Shown piece by piece: positions 3,683-10,440 of a stretch of 64,000 nt of DNA. The notes below the pieces were generated by a model. The model did not search any database, was not told the origin of the DNA, and was given only the letters and a program-made list of their open reading frames with translations. The stretch covers positions 886-64,885 of the forward strand of contig CANQBI010000002.1 in the NCBI GenBank assembly GCA_947589435.1, given 5' to 3'. This stretch comes from an uncultured Bacilli bacterium. GTDB lineage: Bacteria > Bacillota_I > Bacilli_A > RF39 > UBA660. Position 1 is the stretch's first letter. Each line of letters starts with the position of its first letter. The position numbers and the translations under genes were made by a program.

Positions 3683-5092
3683 ATGAAAAATTTAAAAATG
3701 TTTGCAATTGCTGTTATGGCATTCGCTGTAATGGCTATGGGTGTTCATGCTGATAATGTCGCAAGATATACTGATAAAGACGGTTATAAACATGAATTTA
3801 CTACTTTAACACAAGCTTTAGCAGATGTTAAAGATTCTGAAGAAAATGTAACTGTAACTGTTTTAAAAGATATTACTAATGAAACATTTACTGCCGTTAC
3901 AATCAGCGGTAAAGTTACACTTGATTTAGATGGACACAAGGTTTCTTTAACTGGTGGAAATATTAAAGTTGAGAAAGGTACTTTAGTAGTTACTGGTAAA
4001 GAAGGAAGTACAATTTATAGAACTGGAAATACTGGAGGGACTTTATTTGTTGTTCTAGGAAGAAGTTCTCATTTAACTGTTGATACAAATGTAACAGTTG
4101 GATCAAAAGATTCAACAGATACTGCTGTTGGATTATTTAGTGACAAGGGCGCTGCACAATTAGGAAGTGCTGTTAATGCTACAATTGATATTAAAGGAAC
4201 TTTATTATCTAAATCAGGATTTGCTTTCAGTGTTGAAGGATGTGTTGAAGAAGCAGAAAAAAATCCTGCTAAAGTTACAATCTATGATGGAGCAAAATTA
4301 GTTAGTAAAGAAGGCATGGCTTTATATCAAGCTGGTTATGCTATAACAACTATTGGAAAGGCTACAATTGAAGGAGATAGTGGTGTTGGCGCTAAAGCTG
4401 GTTCTATTACATTTAATGGAACTACTGTTACTGCTAAAGGTGAACACGTTGATGAAGCAGGAGATATGAATGGCGGAATCAATGCTGTTGGTGCTGCTAT
4501 TCAAGTAGAAAGTAGTGAAGAAGGAACAACATATGCAAGTCCAGCAACTATTACATTAAATGGTGGTACTTATACATCTGAAAAAACAAATGCAATAGTA
4601 ATTAACAACTGGAGTAAGACAAAAACTGCCTTAGATGAAAAATCAGTTATTGATGGTGGAGCTGTATTAAATAGTGCTGAAGATGAAGATGGTGAACCAT
4701 TACCTGGTATTGCTATTACTGCTGCTGAAAAAGATATAGCTGAAAAATTATTAACAAATCTTGAAGGCTTTGTTAAAGATGCAGAATTTAATGGTGCTAT
4801 TGTTGGAGATTTACTTGTTGGTGATAACACTAAAGATGCTAGTGCTATTCAAGCTACTTTAACAAAAGGTTCTAATGTTAACACTGATGATGAAGGTAAT
4901 ACTACTGTTGGTGGTAATACTGAAGGACAACAACCAGGAACTACAGAACCAGGAACAACTGGTGATGGAAATCAAGGTGGAACAGAAAACGTTAAAAATC
5001 CAGAAACTAATGATAATATCTTAGTATATGCTGGTCTAGGACTAGTAAGTCTTGCCTCTGTTGCTTTTACAGCAAAGAAAAGAGAAGACTAA
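3683..5092 (+). CDS. cell-surface protein with signal peptide and C-terminal sortase-type sorting signal (NPETN + TM + KKRED)
   Basis: The N-terminal signal MKNLKMFAIAVMAFAVMAMGVHA is followed by a Gly/Thr/Val-rich repetitive beta-strand-like body. The C-terminus is NPETNDNILVYAGLGLVSLASVAFTAKKRED. Confidence 0.75.
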   Translation: MKNLKMFAIAVMAFAVMAMGVHADNVARYTDKDGYKHEFTTLTQALADVKDSEENVTVTVLKDITNETFTAVTISGKVTLDLDGHKVSLTGGNIKVEKGTLVVTGKEGSTIYRTGNTGGTLFVVLGRSSHLTVDTNVTVGSKDSTDTAVGLFSDKGAAQLGSAVNATIDIKGTLLSKSGFAFSVEGCVEEAEKNPAKVTIYDGAKLVSKEGMALYQAGYAITTIGKATIEGDSGVGAKAGSITFNGTTVTAKGEHVDEAGDMNGGINAVGAAIQVESSEEGTTYASPATITLNGGTYTSEKTNAIVINNWSKTKTALDEKSVIDGGAVLNSAEDEDGEPLPGIAITAAEKDIAEKLLTNLEGFVKDAEFNGAIVGDLLVGDNTKDASAIQATLTKGSNVNTDDEGNTTVGGNTEGQQPGTTEPGTTGDGNQGGTENVKNPETNDNILVYAGLGLVSLASVAFTAKKRED

Positions 5093-5235
5093 TTAAATAA
5101 GTTACCTAATTTTGTTAAATAAATTGTTTAAATAGAAATTTAGGGACTCGCAAACACCCTAAAATTCATTCTCACAAACCTTTCCACATAACTTGTGGTA
5201 ATTGTAAAACAATTATTAACAAATTGGTATAAATG

Positions 5236-5265
5236 AAACATACTATTTCGGTAGTATGTTTTTTT
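5236..5265 (+). terminator. rho-independent terminator
   Basis: The stem AAACATACTA / TAGTATGTTT is followed by a T run. Confidence 0.7.
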
Positions 5266-5330
5266 GAACAGCTTGATAAAGTATCGAATTTGATATATAA
5301 TATTGTTGCGATATGTAAAGGTGGTCTAAA

Positions 5331-5510
5331 ATGAATTGGTTAAAGAAAATATTTGGTATTAAGAAAAATGTAGAGTATGAAAGTGAAGCTGACTTAGAAC
5401 GAGTGAAATGGACTAGAAAAGATTCAAGTCAAGTAGATAAAGATATGCCTAAATGGCTAGTTAAATTTTTTGAAGAAAATGAAAATGAAGAAAGAAATAG
5501 CAAAATTTAA
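5331..5510 (+). CDS. hypothetical 59-aa protein
   Basis: It has its own promoter (TTGATA 5273-5278, 17-nt spacer, TATAAT 5296-5301) and an AAAGGTGG RBS. A hairpin plus T run at about 5492-5533 follows the stop. No recognisable motif. Confidence 0.4.
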   Translation: MNWLKKIFGIKKNVEYESEADLERVKWTRKDSSQVDKDMPKWLVKFFEENENEERNSKI

Positions 5511-5569
5511 AATTTAAAACTATTTCTTTTTTTAATGGGCGTTTTTTAATCAAAAAATAAATTAAATAT

Positions 5570-5600
5570 AACTTGAGGTGCCAGTTTGGCACCTCAAGTT
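5570..5600. repeat. palindrome/hairpin 1: AACTTGAGGTGCCA gtt TGGCACCTCAAGTT (14-bp arms)
   Basis: The arms are perfect complements and there is no adjacent T run. Confidence 0.9.
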
Positions 5601-5719
5601 AAGAAAAATAATTTTATAGTTCAAAATATTTTCAAGTTCCTAAGTTGGGACCTTAGAAATTATACATATAAATTGGAATTAACAATAATAATGTTTTTGC
5701 GTTTATTAACAAATATATT

Positions 5720-5746
5720 TTTAAGGTCGCAAATTGCGACCTTAAA
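5720..5746. repeat. palindrome/hairpin 2: TTTAAGGTCGCAA a TTGCGACCTTAAA (13-bp arms)
   Basis: Perfect inverted repeat. Confidence 0.9.
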
Positions 5747-5778
5747 GAAGTAATAGTAGTCAATATATTTAAATTGAT

Positions 5779-5805
5779 TTTTCGGTTTCATATTGAAACC
5801 AAAAA
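5779..5805. repeat. palindrome/hairpin 3: TTTTcGGTTTCA tat TGAAACCaAAAA
   Basis: A 7-bp core is extended by 4 A-T pairs across one mismatch. Confidence 0.7.
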
Positions 5806-5870
5806 CATAAAATCATCAGTGTATTATAAAATTAGTTATATAAATTCTTTCTTTAAGTTAGAATTTGTTT

Positions 5871-5897
5871 TTTGTGGTCGCAATTTGCGACCACAAA
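5871..5897. repeat. palindrome/hairpin 4: TTTGTGGTCGCAA t TTGCGACCACAAA (13-bp arms)
   Basis: Perfect inverted repeat. Confidence 0.9.
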
Positions 5898-5939
5898 TAA
5901 TAAATTAAAATGCAAATTACAAAAATGTTACAAAAGTTC

Positions 5940-5968
5940 TTGACAAATATTAGTTCGCACAATATACT
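5940..5968 (+). promoter_or_regulatory. promoter of the ORF6N gene
   Basis: TTGACA, a 17-nt spacer, then TATACT. The extended -35 string CTTGACAAATAT is identical to that of the promoter at 3623. Confidence 0.55.
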
Positions 5969-6007
5969 TGATATAAAGTTGTAAGCATAGAGAGGAGATT
6001 AACAATA

Positions 6008-6916
6008 GTGAATAACTTAATAGTAAGTGAAAATGAAATAACAAATAAAATTTATAATATCAGAGGAGTTCAAGTAATGCTTGATAGTGATTTGGCAGAA
6101 CTATATCAATGTAAGAATGGAACTAAAGAAGTTAATCAAGCTGTAAAAAGAAATATAGATAAATTTCCAGAAGATTTTTATTTTCAATTAACTAAAGAAG
6201 AATATAATAATATTTCAAGGTCACATTTTGTGACCTTGAAGAAAGAAAATAAAAGGGGTTATAATCTTAAATATTTGCCTTATGTTTTTACTGAAGGTGG
6301 TGTAGCTATGCTTGCTACAATATTGAAAACTGAAGTTGCATCAAAGGTTAGTGTAGCTATAATGAAGGCTTTTGTTATAATGCATAAATATATATCTAAT
6401 AATTTACTTGAACAAAAATATATAAATAATCAGGTATTTAAAAATACAGAAGATATAAAAGTATTAAAAGAGTCTTTTGACAGTTTTAAAGAAACAAAAA
6501 AAGTAAATGAAATATATTATGATGGACAAATATGGGATGCTTATTCTAAAATACAAGATATATTTAAACTTGCTAAAAACAAATTAATTATAATAGATGG
6601 TTATGCAGATAATAGTGTCTTAGATATTATAAAAAGGTTAGATAATATAGAAGTAGTAATAATAACTAAACCAAATAATTTATTAACTAAACAAGACATA
6701 GAGAAATATAATAAACAATATCATAATTTAAAAGTAATATTTAATAATAGTTTTCATGATAGATATTTTATATTAGATGATAAGACCATCTATCACTGTG
6801 GTTCTTCCATAAATAGAATTGGTTATAAAACGTTCAGTATAAATCTAATTAATGATAAAGAAATAACAGATTATTTCTTAGGAAAAGTAAAAAATGTAAT
6901 AAAAAATAAAAATTAG
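6008..6916 (+). CDS. ORF6N-domain DNA-binding protein fused to a PLD-like (HxK-type, K replaced by R) C-terminal domain
   Basis: The N-terminus IRGVQVMLDSDLAELY...VKRNIDKFPEDFYFQLTKEE...LKYLPYVFTEGGVAMLATIL is a typical ORF6N domain. The C-terminal HDRYFILDDKTIYHCGSSIN fits HxKxxxxD(x6)GSxN with K changed to R. GTG start with GAGAGGAG RBS. Confidence 0.7.
   Translation: MNNLIVSENEITNKIYNIRGVQVMLDSDLAELYQCKNGTKEVNQAVKRNIDKFPEDFYFQLTKEEYNNISRSHFVTLKKENKRGYNLKYLPYVFTEGGVAMLATILKTEVASKVSVAIMKAFVIMHKYISNNLLEQKYINNQVFKNTEDIKVLKESFDSFKETKKVNEIYYDGQIWDAYSKIQDIFKLAKNKLIIIDGYADNSVLDIIKRLDNIEVVIITKPNNLLTKQDIEKYNKQYHNLKVIFNNSFHDRYFILDDKTIYHCGSSINRIGYKTFSINLINDKEITDYFLGKVKNVIKNKN
6214..6240. repeat. palindrome/hairpin 5, inside the ORF6N coding sequence: TTCAAGGTCACA ttt TGTGACCTTGAA
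   Basis: Perfect 12-bp arms. It encodes the conserved SRSHFVTLK stretch of the ORF6N domain. Confidence 0.9.
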
Positions 6917-6940
6917 CACTCATATATTGACAAGTGCTAA
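6913..6940. promoter_or_regulatory. CIRCE element 1 (HrcA operator)
   Basis: TTAGCACT ... AGTGCTAA are perfect 8-mers. The spacing is one nt longer than the consensus TTAGCACTC-N9-GAGTGCTAA. It overlaps the -35 hexamer. Confidence 0.8.
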
Positions 6941-6955
6941 ATATAATATTATAAT
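6927..6955 (+). promoter_or_regulatory. promoter of the hrcA-grpE-dnaK operon
   Basis: TTGACA (6927-6932), 17-nt spacer, TATAAT (6950-6955). Confidence 0.75.
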
Positions 6956-6959
6956 AGGA

Positions 6960-6986
6960 TTAGCAATTCTGGAATGGGACTGCTAA
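6960..6986. promoter_or_regulatory. CIRCE element 2
   Basis: TTAGCAAT-N11-ACTGCTAA has the canonical spacing and one mismatch per arm. It lies between the -10 hexamer and the RBS. Confidence 0.7.
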
Positions 6987-7002
6987 AAAGGTGGTGATGA
7001 AG

Positions 7003-8007
7003 ATGGATGAAAGAAAGAAAGCCCTACTTAAAGAAATAGTGGAAAATTATGTTAAAACTGTAAAACCAGTTGGTAGTAATTCTCTATGTAAGAAGTTAAA
7101 ATGTTCTAGTGCCACAATTAGAAATGAAATGGCGGTCTTAGAGAATATGGGCTATATAGAGAAGAACCATATCTCAAGCGGTCGAATACCTAGTGAACTT
7201 GGTTATAAGTACTATGTGGAACATTTAATGGAACCTAAAGATTTAACGGGAGAAGATATGTTAAAATTACAAACAATATTTTCAAATCATGAACTAAAGG
7301 TGAGTGATGCCGTTACCAGATGTTTAGAAATCATTAGTGATTTAACTAATTATACATCGGTAGTTTTAGGTAGAAGTAGTAGTGATAATTTATTAAGACA
7401 ATTAAATATTATAGCCTTAGATAACCAAAAGATAGTAGCTATAGTTTGTACGGATAAAGGAATTGTCGAAAATAAAGAATTTAGTTTACCAGAGAATATT
7501 GACGCCGTAGAAATTGTCAAAATAGGCGAAATGGTTAATAAAATGTTAGTGGGTACACCAATTAATAAGGTGGCGGAAAAATTAGAATTTGAAATAAAGC
7601 CTATTATTGCCAAAAGAGTTAAAGATTATGAAACGGTTTACAATATTTTCTATGATGCTTTCAATGATTTTCTTCTTCATAACACGAATATTCATGTTTC
7701 GGGAAGAGTAAATTTACTTAAAGAACCGGAATATGATAATACCACGAGTATTAAAAGAATTGCCTCTAAGTTAGAGGATGATGCTTTTAAACAAATGGTT
7801 AATGATACTCCTGGTGGTGATGATTTACAGATTTATATTGGTAAAGACAGTAAATTTGATGATAATGTTACCGTAATTAAGAAAAAATATAAATCTAATG
7901 GCGAAGAAGGAACCATTGCCATCATTGGACCAAAGCGAATGGAATACGAAAGAGTCGTATCACTTCTTAACTATATGGTAGATAGAATTGAGGGAAAAGA
8001 TGAATAA
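7003..8007 (+). CDS. hrcA: heat-inducible transcription repressor HrcA
   Basis: The N-terminus MDERKKALLKEIVENYVKTVKPVGS is the typical HrcA wHTH, and two CIRCE sites lie upstream. The start is set at the ATG 8 nt after AAAGGTGG; the ORF track offers 6991. Confidence 0.9.
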   Translation: MDERKKALLKEIVENYVKTVKPVGSNSLCKKLKCSSATIRNEMAVLENMGYIEKNHISSGRIPSELGYKYYVEHLMEPKDLTGEDMLKLQTIFSNHELKVSDAVTRCLEIISDLTNYTSVVLGRSSSDNLLRQLNIIALDNQKIVAIVCTDKGIVENKEFSLPENIDAVEIVKIGEMVNKMLVGTPINKVAEKLEFEIKPIIAKRVKDYETVYNIFYDAFNDFLLHNTNIHVSGRVNLLKEPEYDNTTSIKRIASKLEDDAFKQMVNDTPGGDDLQIYIGKDSKFDDNVTVIKKKYKSNGEEGTIAIIGPKRMEYERVVSLLNYMVDRIEGKDE

Positions 8008-10406: not shown

Positions 10407-10440
10407 GTTAGGTTCTAAGATTTCTTAGAGCCTAACTTTT
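10407..10440 (+). terminator. rho-independent terminator after dnaK
   Basis: A 13-bp stem GTTAGGTTCTAAG / CTTAGAGCCTAAC (one G-U pair) is followed by TTTT. Confidence 0.7.

What the first reader, a model, noticed from the sequence alone, without database searches (positions are those of the whole stretch)
5570..6240. Array of four long intergenic palindromes that mimic a palindrome embedded in the conserved coding motif of the downstream ORF6N gene
Four inverted repeats lie within 330 bp of non-coding DNA. They have 7-14-bp arms centred on 5585, 5733, 5792 and 5884. All follow the template (A/T-rich)-RGG-T-NN-CA-(1-3 nt)-TG-NN-A-CCY-(A/T-rich), but each has a different internal sequence, so pairing is kept by compensatory changes. 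They are not terminators, since none has a T run and there is no upstream gene to terminate. They are not CRISPR repeats, since they are non-identical and irregularly spaced. A fifth member, TTCAAGGTCACAtttTGTGACCTTGAA (6214-6240), lies inside the ORF6N gene, exactly where it encodes the family-typical (L/S)RS(Q/H)(F/I)(V/A)T motif. When read in the matching frame, the intergenic copies also spell LRSQIAT, LRCQFGT, WSQFAT and FRFHIET. This suggests selection at the DNA or RNA structural level. Possible roles include operator or cruciform sites for the ORF6N/PLD-like protein, recombination sites, or structured RNA.
Basis: seen in the sequence. Interest (0 to 1): 0.65.

Follow-up and report, generated by a model that had tools for sequence, protein, structure and literature searches.

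The report
DNA palindrome built into ORF6N genes
The four intergenic palindromes are real and belong to a family of DNA palindromes found inside essentially every ORF6N and RhuM gene examined and often just upstream of it, so the "conserved protein motif" of these candidate phage-defence genes is really a conserved DNA element, apparently not described before.

Summary
Observation confirmed and much extended. Five near-perfect palindromes (arms 12-16 bp, odd centre) lie at 5569-6240. Dinucleotide shuffles predict 0.0005.

The coding copy is not a codon accident. 118 distinct ORF6N genes carry a palindrome at the same domain position, in genomes of 25-73% GC. Pairing is 97% against 77% in shuffles, and one pair uses all four Watson-Crick combinations. 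Amino acids follow the base pairing (F/E, S/V-A-G, K/I, M/T). Seven genes read the same DNA in another frame. The sister RhuM family has its own palindrome at the same place. G:T is not favoured over A:C, so selection acts on DNA, not RNA.

The palindrome encodes a disordered loop at the centre of a ~270-nt hypervariable cassette, inside otherwise near-identical genes.

Extragenic copies use the coding repertoire and grade from truncated ORF6N fragments to bare palindromes. They cluster within 1 kb of ORF6N genes, preferentially 30-250 nt before the start codon. They turn over quickly between strains.

The protein is a PADLOC PDC-S05 defence candidate with a TrmB-like layout: DNA-binding domain, coiled coil, PLD-like domain.

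Best reading (inferred): dyad-symmetric binding sites for the dimeric ORF6N protein. The array combines such sites with relics of cassette turnover. A recombination-hotspot role is the main rival.

The parts
5569..5601 (.). Extragenic palindrome 1 (15+3+15, perfect). Core CTTGAGGTGCCA-NNN-TGGCACCTCAAG.
   Evidence: dG -16.9 kcal/mol, z -8.7. The same 24 specified bases occur in at least 120 metagenome contigs of 25-73% GC. 82 of these are inside ORF6N domains (NLRCQxGTSS); others lie just upstream of ORF6N genes.
5631..5656 (.). Decayed family member. The right arm TTGGGACCTTAGA is intact and the left arm is eroded.
   Evidence: The orthologous position in L001 (4136-4168) is a perfect 16-bp-arm palindrome. 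Folding z -1.0.
5718..5748 (.). Extragenic palindrome 2 (TTTTTAAGGTCGCAA-a-TTGCGACCTTAAAGA).
   Evidence: It differs from its orthologue in L002 (312-332) by two compensatory pairs, in a stretch that is otherwise about 98% identical.
5779..5805 (.). Extragenic palindrome 3 (TTTTCGGTTTCA-tat-TGAAACCAAAAA, 1 mismatch).
   Evidence: Identical in L002. The L001 orthologue has decayed on one side only.
5868..5900 (.). Extragenic palindrome 4 (TTTTTTGTGGTCGCAA-t-TTGCGACCACAAATAA). It is the nearest to the promoter, ending 40 nt before the -35 hexamer.
   Evidence: Conserved in L002 and L001.
5940..5968 (+). Promoter-like site TTGACA-17-TATACT of the ORF6N gene. It lies downstream of the whole array.
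   Evidence: 11 of 12 matches. Conserved in L002 and L001.
6008..6916 (+). Gene for a 302-aa protein: ORF6N domain (aa 13-105), long helix (aa 109-165) and PLD-like domain (aa 166-300, with H250-x-R252...D257...G265-S-x-x-N269). PADLOC candidate defence family PDC-S05.
6098..6367 (+). Hypervariable central cassette of the gene (nt 91-360). It is 43-70% identical to close relatives whose flanks are 90-100% identical, and it is centred on the palindrome.
6214..6240 (+). Coding palindrome (12+3+12, perfect). It encodes aa 69-78 (ISRSHFVTLK), at the end of a helix and the start of a low-confidence loop.

Best explanation
The four (originally five) intergenic palindromes are extragenic members of a family of 27-33-bp dyad-symmetric DNA sites that belongs to the ORF6N/RhuM N-terminal domain module.

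Every gene for this domain carries one such site inside its own coding sequence. It lies in the segment that encodes a disordered surface loop, in the middle of the hypervariable part of the domain. Many genes have further copies within a few hundred bases, most often 30-250 nt before the start codon.

The sites are selected as DNA. Certain bases are conserved (TT..RGGT / ACCY..AA and an A/T centre). The distance between half-sites is fixed. All variable positions stay complementary.

Most likely mechanism (inferred, not shown): the protein is a dimer with two ORF6N DNA-binding domains, joined by a coiled coil and a PLD-like domain, as in TrmB-type proteins. It binds these dyads, as duplex or as extruded hairpins. 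The upstream copies would act as operators and the coding copy as an intragenic partner site.

The array in this window is a mix of such sites and of leftovers. Recurrent duplication, exchange and deletion of the palindrome-bearing central cassette leaves fragments beside the gene. These fragments erode until only the palindrome remains.
For: Shown:
1. Family-wide coding palindrome. 118 distinct ORF6N genes align without gaps. 97.1% of cells are paired against 77.0+-0.6 in 500 shuffles (0/500). The covariation score is 0.587 against 0.196. Slid controls give 25-54% pairing. One pair is GC39/CG28/AU23/UA22.
2. The DNA overrides the protein. The third base of the Ser codon pairs with the second base of the V/A/G/E codon. 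Amino-acid pairs follow the base pairing: F(TTT)/E(GAA), K(AAA)/I(ATT), M(ATG)/T(ACA). Seven full domains read the same palindrome in a shifted frame as FLVENFDQK. One gene carries four in-frame tandem palindromes.
3. RhuM genes (Pfam PF13310) have a different palindrome at the same relative position, encoding very different peptides.
4. Specific bases are kept regardless of genome composition. The exact 24-base core of window palindrome 1 is found in contigs of 25-73% GC.
5. There is no G:T excess (17 G:T, 24 A:C). In close pairs the arms diverge 2.6%, the flanks 8.9% and the three central bases 20.6%, with 8 double-sided and 5 single-sided arm changes.
6. Placement. 91% of extragenic copies lie within 1 kb of an ORF6N domain, a zone that is 23% of the sequence. 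In 82 diverse loci, 15 of 21 other strong palindromes lie within 600 nt upstream of the start (7 of them in -100..0) and none lie in gene bodies. 12 of 20 extragenic exact copies lie at -29..-235. Matched pairs occur in Butyrivibrio (at -45) and Legionella (+6 after the stop).
7. Descent from genes. The extragenic copies use the same arm repertoire, and there is a continuum of truncated central fragments (HMM positions 29-99, 30-84, 43-85 and others).
8. Protein. The C-terminal fold is PLD-like. TrmBL2 aligns over the full length of the model, though with low TM-score (0.30) and high rmsd. The palindrome-encoded residues 71-87 have pLDDT below 50.
Against: - Binding of the protein to these sites is not shown by anything here.
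- Natural operators are rarely perfect palindromes, and positions a protein does not contact need not stay symmetric. Here the variable positions are 93-100% complementary, which fits hairpin pairing or templated self-correction better than plain duplex recognition.
- Array members are mostly not copies of the neighbouring gene's own palindrome (8.6 of 12 against 8.0 of 12 by chance). A strictly cognate operator model therefore fails.
- In this window the array lies upstream of the -35 hexamer rather than over the promoter. Three of its members sit 200-420 nt from the start codon.
- Some orthologous copies have decayed on one side, so not every member is maintained.
- Arrays differ completely between strains with orthologous genes, which looks more like turnover than like regulation.
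Confidence: 0.5

Rival explanations
1. Recombination hotspot. The palindrome forms a hairpin or cruciform that is nicked or broken, by host SbcCD-type nucleases or by the PLD-like domain. Repair from paralogues, silent fragments or incoming DNA then exchanges the surrounding specificity cassette. The arrays are stores or leftovers of such cassettes, as with pilS, vls or hsdS-type variation.
For: - The hypervariable ~270-nt cassette is centred on the palindrome in 39 gene pairs, including tandem paralogues.
- Central-only gene fragments lie between full genes, for example L030 5992-6372.
- One gene carries in-frame tandem palindromes.
- Arrays are replaced completely between strains, and three independent assemblies break inside the same palindrome.
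- Double-sided changes occur in otherwise identical DNA.
- The perfect symmetry and A/T-rich, fast-evolving centre fit an extruding structure.
Against: - The arms are short (12-16 bp) for efficient hairpin cleavage.
- Most array members keep no flanking homology, so they cannot serve as donors.
- RhuM-N domains fused to Fic rather than PLD also carry the palindrome, so cleavage by the C-terminal domain cannot be the general rule.
- The promoter-proximal placement and the conservation of specific bases across 25-73% GC are not explained by this model.
- It is compatible with the binding model rather than exclusive of it.
Confidence: 0.25
2. Neutral relics kept perfect by mutation bias. The intergenic copies are only the last remains of dead ORF6N gene copies. 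They stay palindromic because quasi-palindromes are corrected by intramolecular template switching during replication. They have no present function.
For: - There is a continuum from truncated domains to bare palindromes.
- The arm repertoire is the same as in coding copies.
- Some orthologous copies have decayed on one side.
- Double-sided changes outnumber single-sided ones.
- Array content is not cognate with the adjacent gene.
Against: - Exact 27-bp copies sit in GC-rich non-coding flanks of 50-67% GC genomes.
- There is a strong positional preference just upstream of start codons.
- The coding copy has been retained across two protein families and many phyla, even at the cost of amino-acid changes.
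- GGT/ACC and the outer TT/AA are conserved in the non-coding copies (though with an ascertainment caveat).
Confidence: 0.12
3. REP/MITE-like mobile mini-palindromes. These would be moved by the ORF6N/PLD-like protein, by analogy with REP elements and RAYT transposases, and would insert next to existing copies, including inside the gene.
For: - Clusters of palindromes that differ in sequence but share structure lie beside a gene for a DNA-binding, nuclease-like protein.
- Abutting palindromes are seen in L054, L182, L249 and L260.
- The units of duplication are about 36-76 nt.
Against: - They are not dispersed. There are none elsewhere in the 64-kb window, and 91% lie within 1 kb of ORF6N domains.
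- There is no HUH/Y1 transposase.
- No target duplications are evident in the flanks shown; this was not tested systematically.
- The coding copy is at one fixed codon position throughout the superfamily.
Confidence: 0.06
4. Structured RNA. The hairpins would act in the mRNA or in small transcripts, for translational autoregulation, processing or stability, or as intrinsic terminators.
For: - The coding copy and some upstream copies (L001 4942-4978, L101) lie within the transcribed region.
- The hairpins are strong.
Against: - G:U is not favoured over A:C (15 G-U among 1416 cells; 17 against 24).
- There is no Rfam match.
- The window array lies upstream of the promoter.
- There is no T-run on the + strand. 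Terminator-like matches appear only on the - strand of AT-rich flanks.
- The palindromes are exactly symmetric right up to the centre.
Confidence: 0.04

Closest known systems
Cis sites lying inside the gene of the protein that uses them (lambda ori iterons inside gene O; pac sites inside small-terminase genes; auxiliary operators such as lacO2 in lacZ and galOI in galE). Cited from established knowledge, not tested here.
   Same: A DNA site sits within coding sequence and works together with a partner site near the promoter. In lambda O the sites lie in the part that encodes a flexible linker, much as this palindrome encodes a low-confidence loop.
   Different: Here the site is at the same codon position throughout two protein families (ORF6N and RhuM) and many phyla. 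It is a near-perfect palindrome with covarying positions. It dictates the amino acids and can be read in other frames. Binding is not demonstrated.
REP/BIME elements with RAYT (TnpA-REP) genes
   Same: Clusters of extragenic palindromes lie next to the gene of a DNA-acting protein, with pairing kept while the sequence varies.
   Different: These palindromes are not dispersed over the genome. There is no HUH transposase. A copy sits inside the gene itself.
Hairpin sites recognised by structure plus a few bases (integron attC; IS200/IS605 ends)
   Same: A few bases are conserved and pairing is kept by compensatory change. This is the pattern seen.
   Different: These palindromes are perfectly symmetric, so both strands form the same hairpin. 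There are no extrahelical bases, no integrase or TnpA nearby, and no cassettes between the sites.
TrmB / TrmBL2 DNA-binding proteins (PDB 5bpi, 2f5t)
   Same: An N-terminal DNA-binding domain, a long helix and a PLD-like C-terminal domain. These are the best Foldseek matches, and TrmBL2 aligns over the whole model length, though with low TM-score (0.30) and high rmsd.
   Different: There is no sequence-level membership. The N-domain is ORF6N, not the TrmB winged helix. The H-x-R...D...GSxxN residues are invariant here, which suggests an active or ligand-binding pocket.
Variable-cassette defence and surface genes (hsdS target-recognition domains, pilE/pilS, vlsE, orphan toxin modules)
   Same: A constant frame encloses one hypervariable segment. 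Tandem paralogues differ only in that segment, and partial 'central-only' copies lie beside the expressed gene.
   Different: The fragments are mostly eroded to about 30 bp. A palindrome marks the centre of the cassette. No recombinase is linked.
Quasi-palindrome templated mutation (template switching in hairpins). Cited from established knowledge.
   Same: Double-sided changes occur in otherwise identical DNA, and symmetry is kept perfect.
   Different: That is a mutational process, not a function. It does not explain the placement, the conserved bases or retention across the superfamily.

Membership tests
Pfam PF10543 ORF6N (the protein) | HMM match above the gathering score | tested here: met
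   E = 1.7e-30, 105.6 bits against a cut-off of 27.8, residues 13-105.
PADLOC PDC-S05 (candidate single-gene phage defence) | Match to the family HMM over the full length | tested here: met
   PDLC04869, E = 1.9e-89, residues 4-296 of 302.
PADLOC PDC-S05 (candidate single-gene phage defence) | Protects against phage | not testable with these tools
   A different PDC-S05 member with a RhuM domain lowered plating of T7 and T5 about 1000-fold and of T4 about 10-fold (bioRxiv 10.1101/2024.09.26.614923). This protein itself is untested.
Phospholipase D superfamily | PLD fold | tested here: met
   Foldseek matches to Zucchini 4gen (E = 1e-4, TM 0.56 on the target), MITD1, Tdp1 and PPK. The model's C-terminal domain has pLDDT of about 88-90.
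Phospholipase D superfamily | Catalytic H-x-K-x4-D ... G-S-x-N motif | tested here: not met
   H250-D-R252-x4-D257 ... G265-S-S-I-N269. An invariant Arg replaces the Lys and the spacing is one residue longer. Whether it is catalytic is unknown.
REP/BIME elements | Many copies dispersed in intergenic regions across the genome | tested here: not met
   no family member elsewhere in the 64 kb; 91% of extragenic copies lie within 1 kb of an ORF6N domain.
REP/BIME elements | Linked RAYT (Y1 HUH transposase) gene | tested here: not met
   the adjacent gene matches only ORF6N, and the C-terminal domain is PLD-like.
CRISPR array | Near-identical direct repeats at regular spacing | tested here: not met
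   the copies are 74-76% identical, with spacings of 89, 151 and 343 nt.
Intrinsic terminators | GC-rich hairpin followed by a T-run on the strand of an upstream gene | tested here: not met
   terminator-like matches at these sites appear only on the - strand, where no gene ends. There are none on the + strand.
Any Rfam RNA family | Covariance-model match | tested here: not met
   the best E-values are 0.3-0.8, far below the gathering scores.
Integron attC sites | Integron integrase nearby, and sites that bound gene cassettes | tested here: not met
   there is no integrase, and the spaces of 30-120 nt between sites hold no genes.
Autoregulatory operator of a dimeric DNA-binding protein | Dyad symmetry with fixed half-site spacing, placed near the promoter | tested here: met
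   no indel at the centre in 118 sites; extragenic copies are enriched 30-250 nt before the start codon. In this window the nearest copy ends 40 nt before the -35 hexamer.
Autoregulatory operator of a dimeric DNA-binding protein | The protein binds the site and changes transcription | not testable with these tools
   This needs EMSA or footprinting and reporter assays.
Autoregulatory operator of a dimeric DNA-binding protein | The extragenic sites match the gene's own (cognate) site | tested here: inconclusive
   8.63 of 12 against 7.99 of 12 by chance; at least 11 of 12 in 14% against 7%. Matched pairs occur in Butyrivibrio and Legionella, but most arrays are non-cognate.

The most novel reading that the evidence does not exclude
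The ORF6N/RhuM N-terminal module is a DNA-binding domain that carries its own recognition hairpin inside its coding sequence, as a 'self-addressed' gene module. The palindrome would be both the site the protein binds and the point where breaks start the exchange of the surrounding specificity cassette. Defence genes of this superfamily would then diversify their target recognition in a programmed way, leaving arrays of spent palindromes beside them. On this reading the Pfam 'signature motif' is a by-product of a DNA element.
Probability: 0.3. Interest if true: 0.9.

Novelty: new variant of a known kind. Interest (0 to 1): 0.8.

Why it matters
- It shows that the most conserved 'protein motif' of a widespread domain family (PF10543, and likewise the start of PF13310 RhuM) is constrained by DNA pairing rather than by protein function. 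That affects how these families are aligned, annotated and modelled.
- It gives a concrete and testable lead on how PDC-S05/RhuM-type candidate defence genes are controlled or diversified. These genes are common in defence islands and type I restriction operons, and their mechanism is unknown.
- It provides a natural data set of hundreds of covarying DNA palindromes. This can be used to separate selection on DNA structure, protein binding and templated mutation.
- Practically, the palindromes explain contig breaks and mosaic alleles at these loci in metagenome assemblies.

Tried and rejected
- Rfam scan of 5000-7200 at permissive E-values found nothing.
- RNA-structure reading was rejected on the G:U against A:C counts and on the promoter position.
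- Terminator reading was rejected: there is no T-run on the + strand.
- CRISPR and tandem-repeat readings were rejected on identity and spacing.
- REP-like dispersal was rejected.
- 'Peptide encoded by the palindrome is the element under selection' was rejected. Synonymous sites covary, other reading frames are used, the peptide is disordered in the model, and RhuM peptides are unrelated to each other.
- 'The array consists of copies of the gene's own site' is only weakly supported.
- Search for a solved ORF6N structure by sequence found none.
- Cultured-phage collection gave only 5 weak, unannotated hits, so no functional context came from phages.
- Literature searches for ORF6N, PDC-S05 and RhuM with palindrome or hairpin found no report of these palindromes in the held library.
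- The first structure model, built on 24 sequences, was unusable for the N-domain and was redone with 115 sequences.
- Residue-base covariation between the protein and its palindrome was considered but not run. The cassette is inherited as one block, so linkage would confound the result.
Full report
**1.

The window has 28% G+C. Reading 5000-7200 and two independent palindrome scans give near-perfect palindromes at these places:
- 5569-5601: 15-bp perfect arms, 3-nt centre.
- 5718-5748: 15-bp arms, one mismatch.
- 5779-5805: 12-bp arms, one mismatch.
- 5868-5900: 16-bp arms, one mismatch.
- 6214-6240: 12-bp perfect arms. This copy lies inside the ORF at 6008-6916.

A sixth, eroded copy lies at about 5631-5656.

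With a fixed criterion (at least 11 of 12 pairs, at least 3 G/C per arm), the 64-kb window holds six such palindromes. Five of them fall within 5585-6227. Dinucleotide shuffles give 0.14 per 64 kb and 0.0005 per 730 bp. As single-stranded DNA the five fold at -7.8 to -16.9 kcal/mol, z = -4.7 to -9.0.

One detail is wrong. A plausible 59-aa ORF (5331-5510, with a promoter-like site and a ribosome-binding site) ends 59 nt before the first palindrome.

**2. The gene**

The ORF encodes 302 aa with a Pfam ORF6N domain at residues 13-105 (E = 1.7e-30). It matches PADLOC candidate defence family PDC-S05 over its whole length (E = 1.9e-89). A different PDC-S05 member, of the RhuM type, reduced plating of T7, T5 and T4 in one preprint (10.1101/2024.09.26.614923).

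An AlphaFold model built on 115 homologues is confident except for residues 71-87. It has three parts:
- a compact N-domain;
- a 55-residue helix (aa 109-165);
- a C-terminal domain whose best PDB matches are TrmBL2, Zucchini, MITD1, Tdp1 and PPK, which means a PLD-like fold.

TrmBL2 aligns over the full length of the model, though with low TM-score (0.30) and high rmsd. The PLD signature is altered to H-x-R...D...GSxxN, but it is invariant across the family.

The family is very large: more than 7,900 database hits. A Treponema homologue sits between hsdM and hsdS of a type I restriction system.

**3. The coding palindrome is a property of the domain family and is selected as DNA**

I fetched 80 genome loci, mostly gut Bacilli MAGs, 20 viral-contig loci of 26-53% G+C and plasmid homologues. 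Almost every ORF6N domain has a palindrome at the same domain position. The few exceptions are quasi-palindromes.

An ungapped alignment of 118 distinct 41-mers was scored with the pair-counting tool:
- 97.1% of cells are paired, against 77.0+-0.6 in 500 shuffles (0/500).
- The covariation score is 0.587, against 0.196 (0/500).
- 296 cells are changed on both sides, against 79 in shuffles.
- Sliding the partner column gives 25-54% pairing.
- Ten of the twelve pairs show double-sided changes.
- One pair uses all four Watson-Crick combinations almost equally (39/29/24/22).

The pairing involves synonymous positions. The third base of the Ser codon pairs with the second base of the V/A/G/E codon. 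Pairing also forces amino-acid changes: F(TTT) with E(GAA), K(AAA) with I(ATT), M(ATG) with T(ACA).

Seven complete domains read the same DNA palindrome in a shifted frame, as FLVENFDQK instead of LRSKIST. One Saccharibacteria gene has four different palindromes in tandem, all in frame.

G:T mismatches are not favoured over A:C (17 against 24; only 15 G-U among 1416 cells). This argues against RNA-level selection.

Among close relatives, the arms differ at 2.6% of sites, the flanking coding DNA at 8.9% and the three central bases at 20.6%. There are 8 double-sided and 5 single-sided arm changes.

**4. The feature extends beyond ORF6N and across base compositions**

RhuM proteins share the architecture: 28.8% identity over residues 21-279, with Pfam PF13310 confirmed. 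They carry a different palindrome (for example AACTGTTCGGGA-t-TCCCGAACAGTT types) at the same relative position, +179 to +196. This holds in all 14 distinct viral-contig genes examined and in six other loci. The encoded peptides are unrelated to each other: STVRKFRTVQ, SVVAKFATTA, MRKFGNSEFS, SVCSILELTA. Some of these N-domains are fused to Fic instead of a PLD-like domain.

I then scanned metagenomes for the exact core of window palindrome 1, CTTGAGGTGCCA-NNN-TGGCACCTCAAG. Of these, 82 are inside ORF6N domains that encode NLRCQxGTSS.

So specific bases are conserved as well as pairing. This points to recognition by a protein rather than to structure alone.

**5. What the palindrome encodes and where it sits in the gene**

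It encodes residues 69-78. These lie at the end of a helix and the start of the only low-confidence stretch of the N-domain (aa 71-87, pLDDT below 50). In alignments this is the hypervariable, length-variable loop.

At the DNA level the window gene and its relatives L001 and L002 compare as follows:
- nt 1-90: 97-100% identical;
- nt 91-360: 43-70% identical;
- nt 361-840: 90-100% identical.

The same dip is seen in 39 gene pairs, including tandem paralogues within one locus. Its minimum falls next to the palindrome. The genes are therefore mosaics: a constant frame around an exchanged or diversified ~270-nt cassette centred on the palindrome.

**6. What the intergenic copies are**

I searched six-frame translations with an ORF6N profile. 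Of 167 family palindromes in the first 80 loci and the window:
- 97 lie in full domains;
- 25 lie in partial matches, and several of these are clear central fragments (L030 5992-6210 = HMM 29-99; L030 6208-6372 = HMM 30-84; also L049, L077 and L004);
- 45 have no detectable flanking homology, and these include all four in the window.

The extragenic copies use exactly the pair types seen in coding copies, including outer-arm types that in genes are dictated by codons. They therefore come from the same pool as the coding copies and do not arise independently.

Arrays occur at many loci. L001 has nine copies upstream, L018 six downstream, L067 six upstream and L072 four downstream. 91% of extragenic copies lie within 1 kb of an ORF6N domain, a zone that makes up 23% of the sequence.

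Turnover is fast:
- The window and L002 arrays are about 98% identical. Yet palindrome 5718-5748 differs by two compensatory pairs.
- Against L001, some orthologous copies changed symmetrically and others decayed on one side.
- Strains with the orthologous gene upstream of hrcA have entirely different arrays.
- Three independent assemblies break inside the same palindrome.

**7. Placement**

In the Bacilli loci, 16 of 40 upstream copies are centred 35-125 nt before the start codon.

For an unbiased view I took the 82 diverse metagenome loci that had been selected only for their coding palindrome. All other strong odd-centred palindromes there number 21, with no sequence filter applied:
- 15 lie within 600 nt upstream of the ORF6N start, and 7 of those lie in -100..0;
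- none lie in gene bodies or in the first 1.8 kb downstream;
- 12 of the 14 upstream ones listed are family-type, but they differ from the gene's own coding palindrome.

Extragenic exact copies of window palindrome 1 sit as AT-richer islands in GC-rich flanks. 12 of the 20 with a gene in view lie at -29 to -235. Matched pairs with the same arms exist in Butyrivibrio pCY186 (at -45 and +209) and in a Legionella plasmid (at +188 and 6 nt after the stop).

In general, though, array members are hardly more similar to the neighbouring coding palindrome than chance predicts (8.63 against 7.99 of 12).

In this window the promoter-like site (5940-5968) lies downstream of the whole array. The nearest palindrome ends 40 nt before the -35 hexamer.

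**8. Interpretation**

Shown:
- a DNA-level, dyad-symmetric element with conserved bases, fixed spacing and covarying positions;
- its presence in every ORF6N/RhuM-N gene examined;
- extragenic copies of common origin, concentrated beside these genes and preferentially just upstream;
- a hypervariable cassette centred on the coding copy;
- a protein with a TrmB-like layout, which suggests a dimeric DNA binder.

Inferred: the protein binds these dyads, with the upstream copies acting as operators and the coding copy as an intragenic partner. The window array would be a mixture of such sites and of relics left by duplication, exchange and deletion of the cassette.

The near-perfect symmetry at variable positions is not what simple duplex operators show. 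It suggests that hairpin or cruciform pairing, or templated self-correction, also plays a part.

The main rival, which is compatible with the binding model, is that the palindrome is the initiation point for cassette exchange. Pure neutral relics, REP-like mobility, RNA structure and terminators are less likely, for the reasons given under each rival.

**9. Novelty**

Searches of the held literature for ORF6N, PDC-S05 and RhuM with palindrome or hairpin terms found no description of these palindromes. There is no Rfam family and no solved ORF6N structure findable by sequence.

Known parallels are cis sites inside the genes of the proteins that use them, REP/RAYT, attC-type hairpins, and variable-cassette genes. 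None combines all of the following: a fixed codon position across a superfamily, covariation that overrides the peptide, and arrays of relics.

I file it as a new variant of a known kind, namely gene-embedded cis sites of DNA-binding proteins. There is a substantial chance that the mechanism turns out to be of a new kind.

Noticed in passing
window 6913-6940 and 6961-6987: CIRCE-type inverted repeat TTAGCACTC-N9-AAGTGCTAA overlapping the hrcA promoter (TTGACA at 6927, TATAAT ending 6955). A second, degenerate copy lies at 6961-6987. This is the expected HrcA operator ahead of hrcA-grpE-dnaK and is unrelated to the ORF6N palindromes.
   Followed up: partly
window 5331-5510: Small ORF of 59 aa with a good promoter-like site (5273-5301) and a ribosome-binding site. 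It has no Pfam match. The segment that holds it is absent from the orthologous locus L002.
   Followed up: partly
L054 1675-1807: A Saccharibacteria-bin ORF6N gene carries four different family palindromes in tandem, all in frame (LLWFQNGTA..NLKSQLGTSS..LRSQVETA NLKFQTETS). This resembles an iteron-like array inside a coding sequence.
   Followed up: partly
L003 3890-3922, L006 4001-4033, L024 6076-6100, L025 6584-6614, L037 6254-6284, L107 3135-3159, L109-L141: RhuM-family genes (PF13310), some fused to Fic, have their own covarying coding palindrome at the position equivalent to the ORF6N one. The Pfam RhuM model starts at about that motif.
   Followed up: yes
L072 5933-6114: Three tandem units of about 76 bp. 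Each holds the same family palindrome plus a second small hairpin (CCCTTATAAAACAAGG). They are followed by a fourth, different palindrome.
   Followed up: no
L067 4250-4290 and 4520-4560; L001 4868-4880: The motif ATATCGGTAA(AAAGGGGGATTGGTGAG) recurs inside arrays, and in L001 it occurs just after the -10 hexamer of the ORF6N promoter. This suggests that some array units are collapsed promoter-leader-palindrome copies, or that they are transcribed.
   Followed up: no
L102, L103, L104 position 1: Contigs from three separate assemblies all begin at the same base inside a family palindrome, 333 nt upstream of the orthologous gene. The arrays appear to break metagenome assemblies.
   Followed up: no
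L182 ~366-420, L249 ~4788-4840, L260 ~1131-1180: In GC-rich metagenome contigs, an exact copy of window palindrome 1 is immediately followed by a second family palindrome of another type. Abutting pairs therefore also occur far from the Bacilli lineage.
   Followed up: no
window 10407-10436; L002 4989-5018: Palindrome GTTAGGTTCTAAGA-tt-TCTTAGAGCCTAAC directly after dnaK, identical in the orthologous locus. It is probably the operon terminator and is not a family member.
   Followed up: no
metagenome loci: GTGCCA-core and GTCACA-core palindromes tend to occur together at one gene, one in the coding sequence and the other upstream, in either arrangement. This could be chance, since GTCACA is common, or it could point to paired sites.
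   Followed up: no
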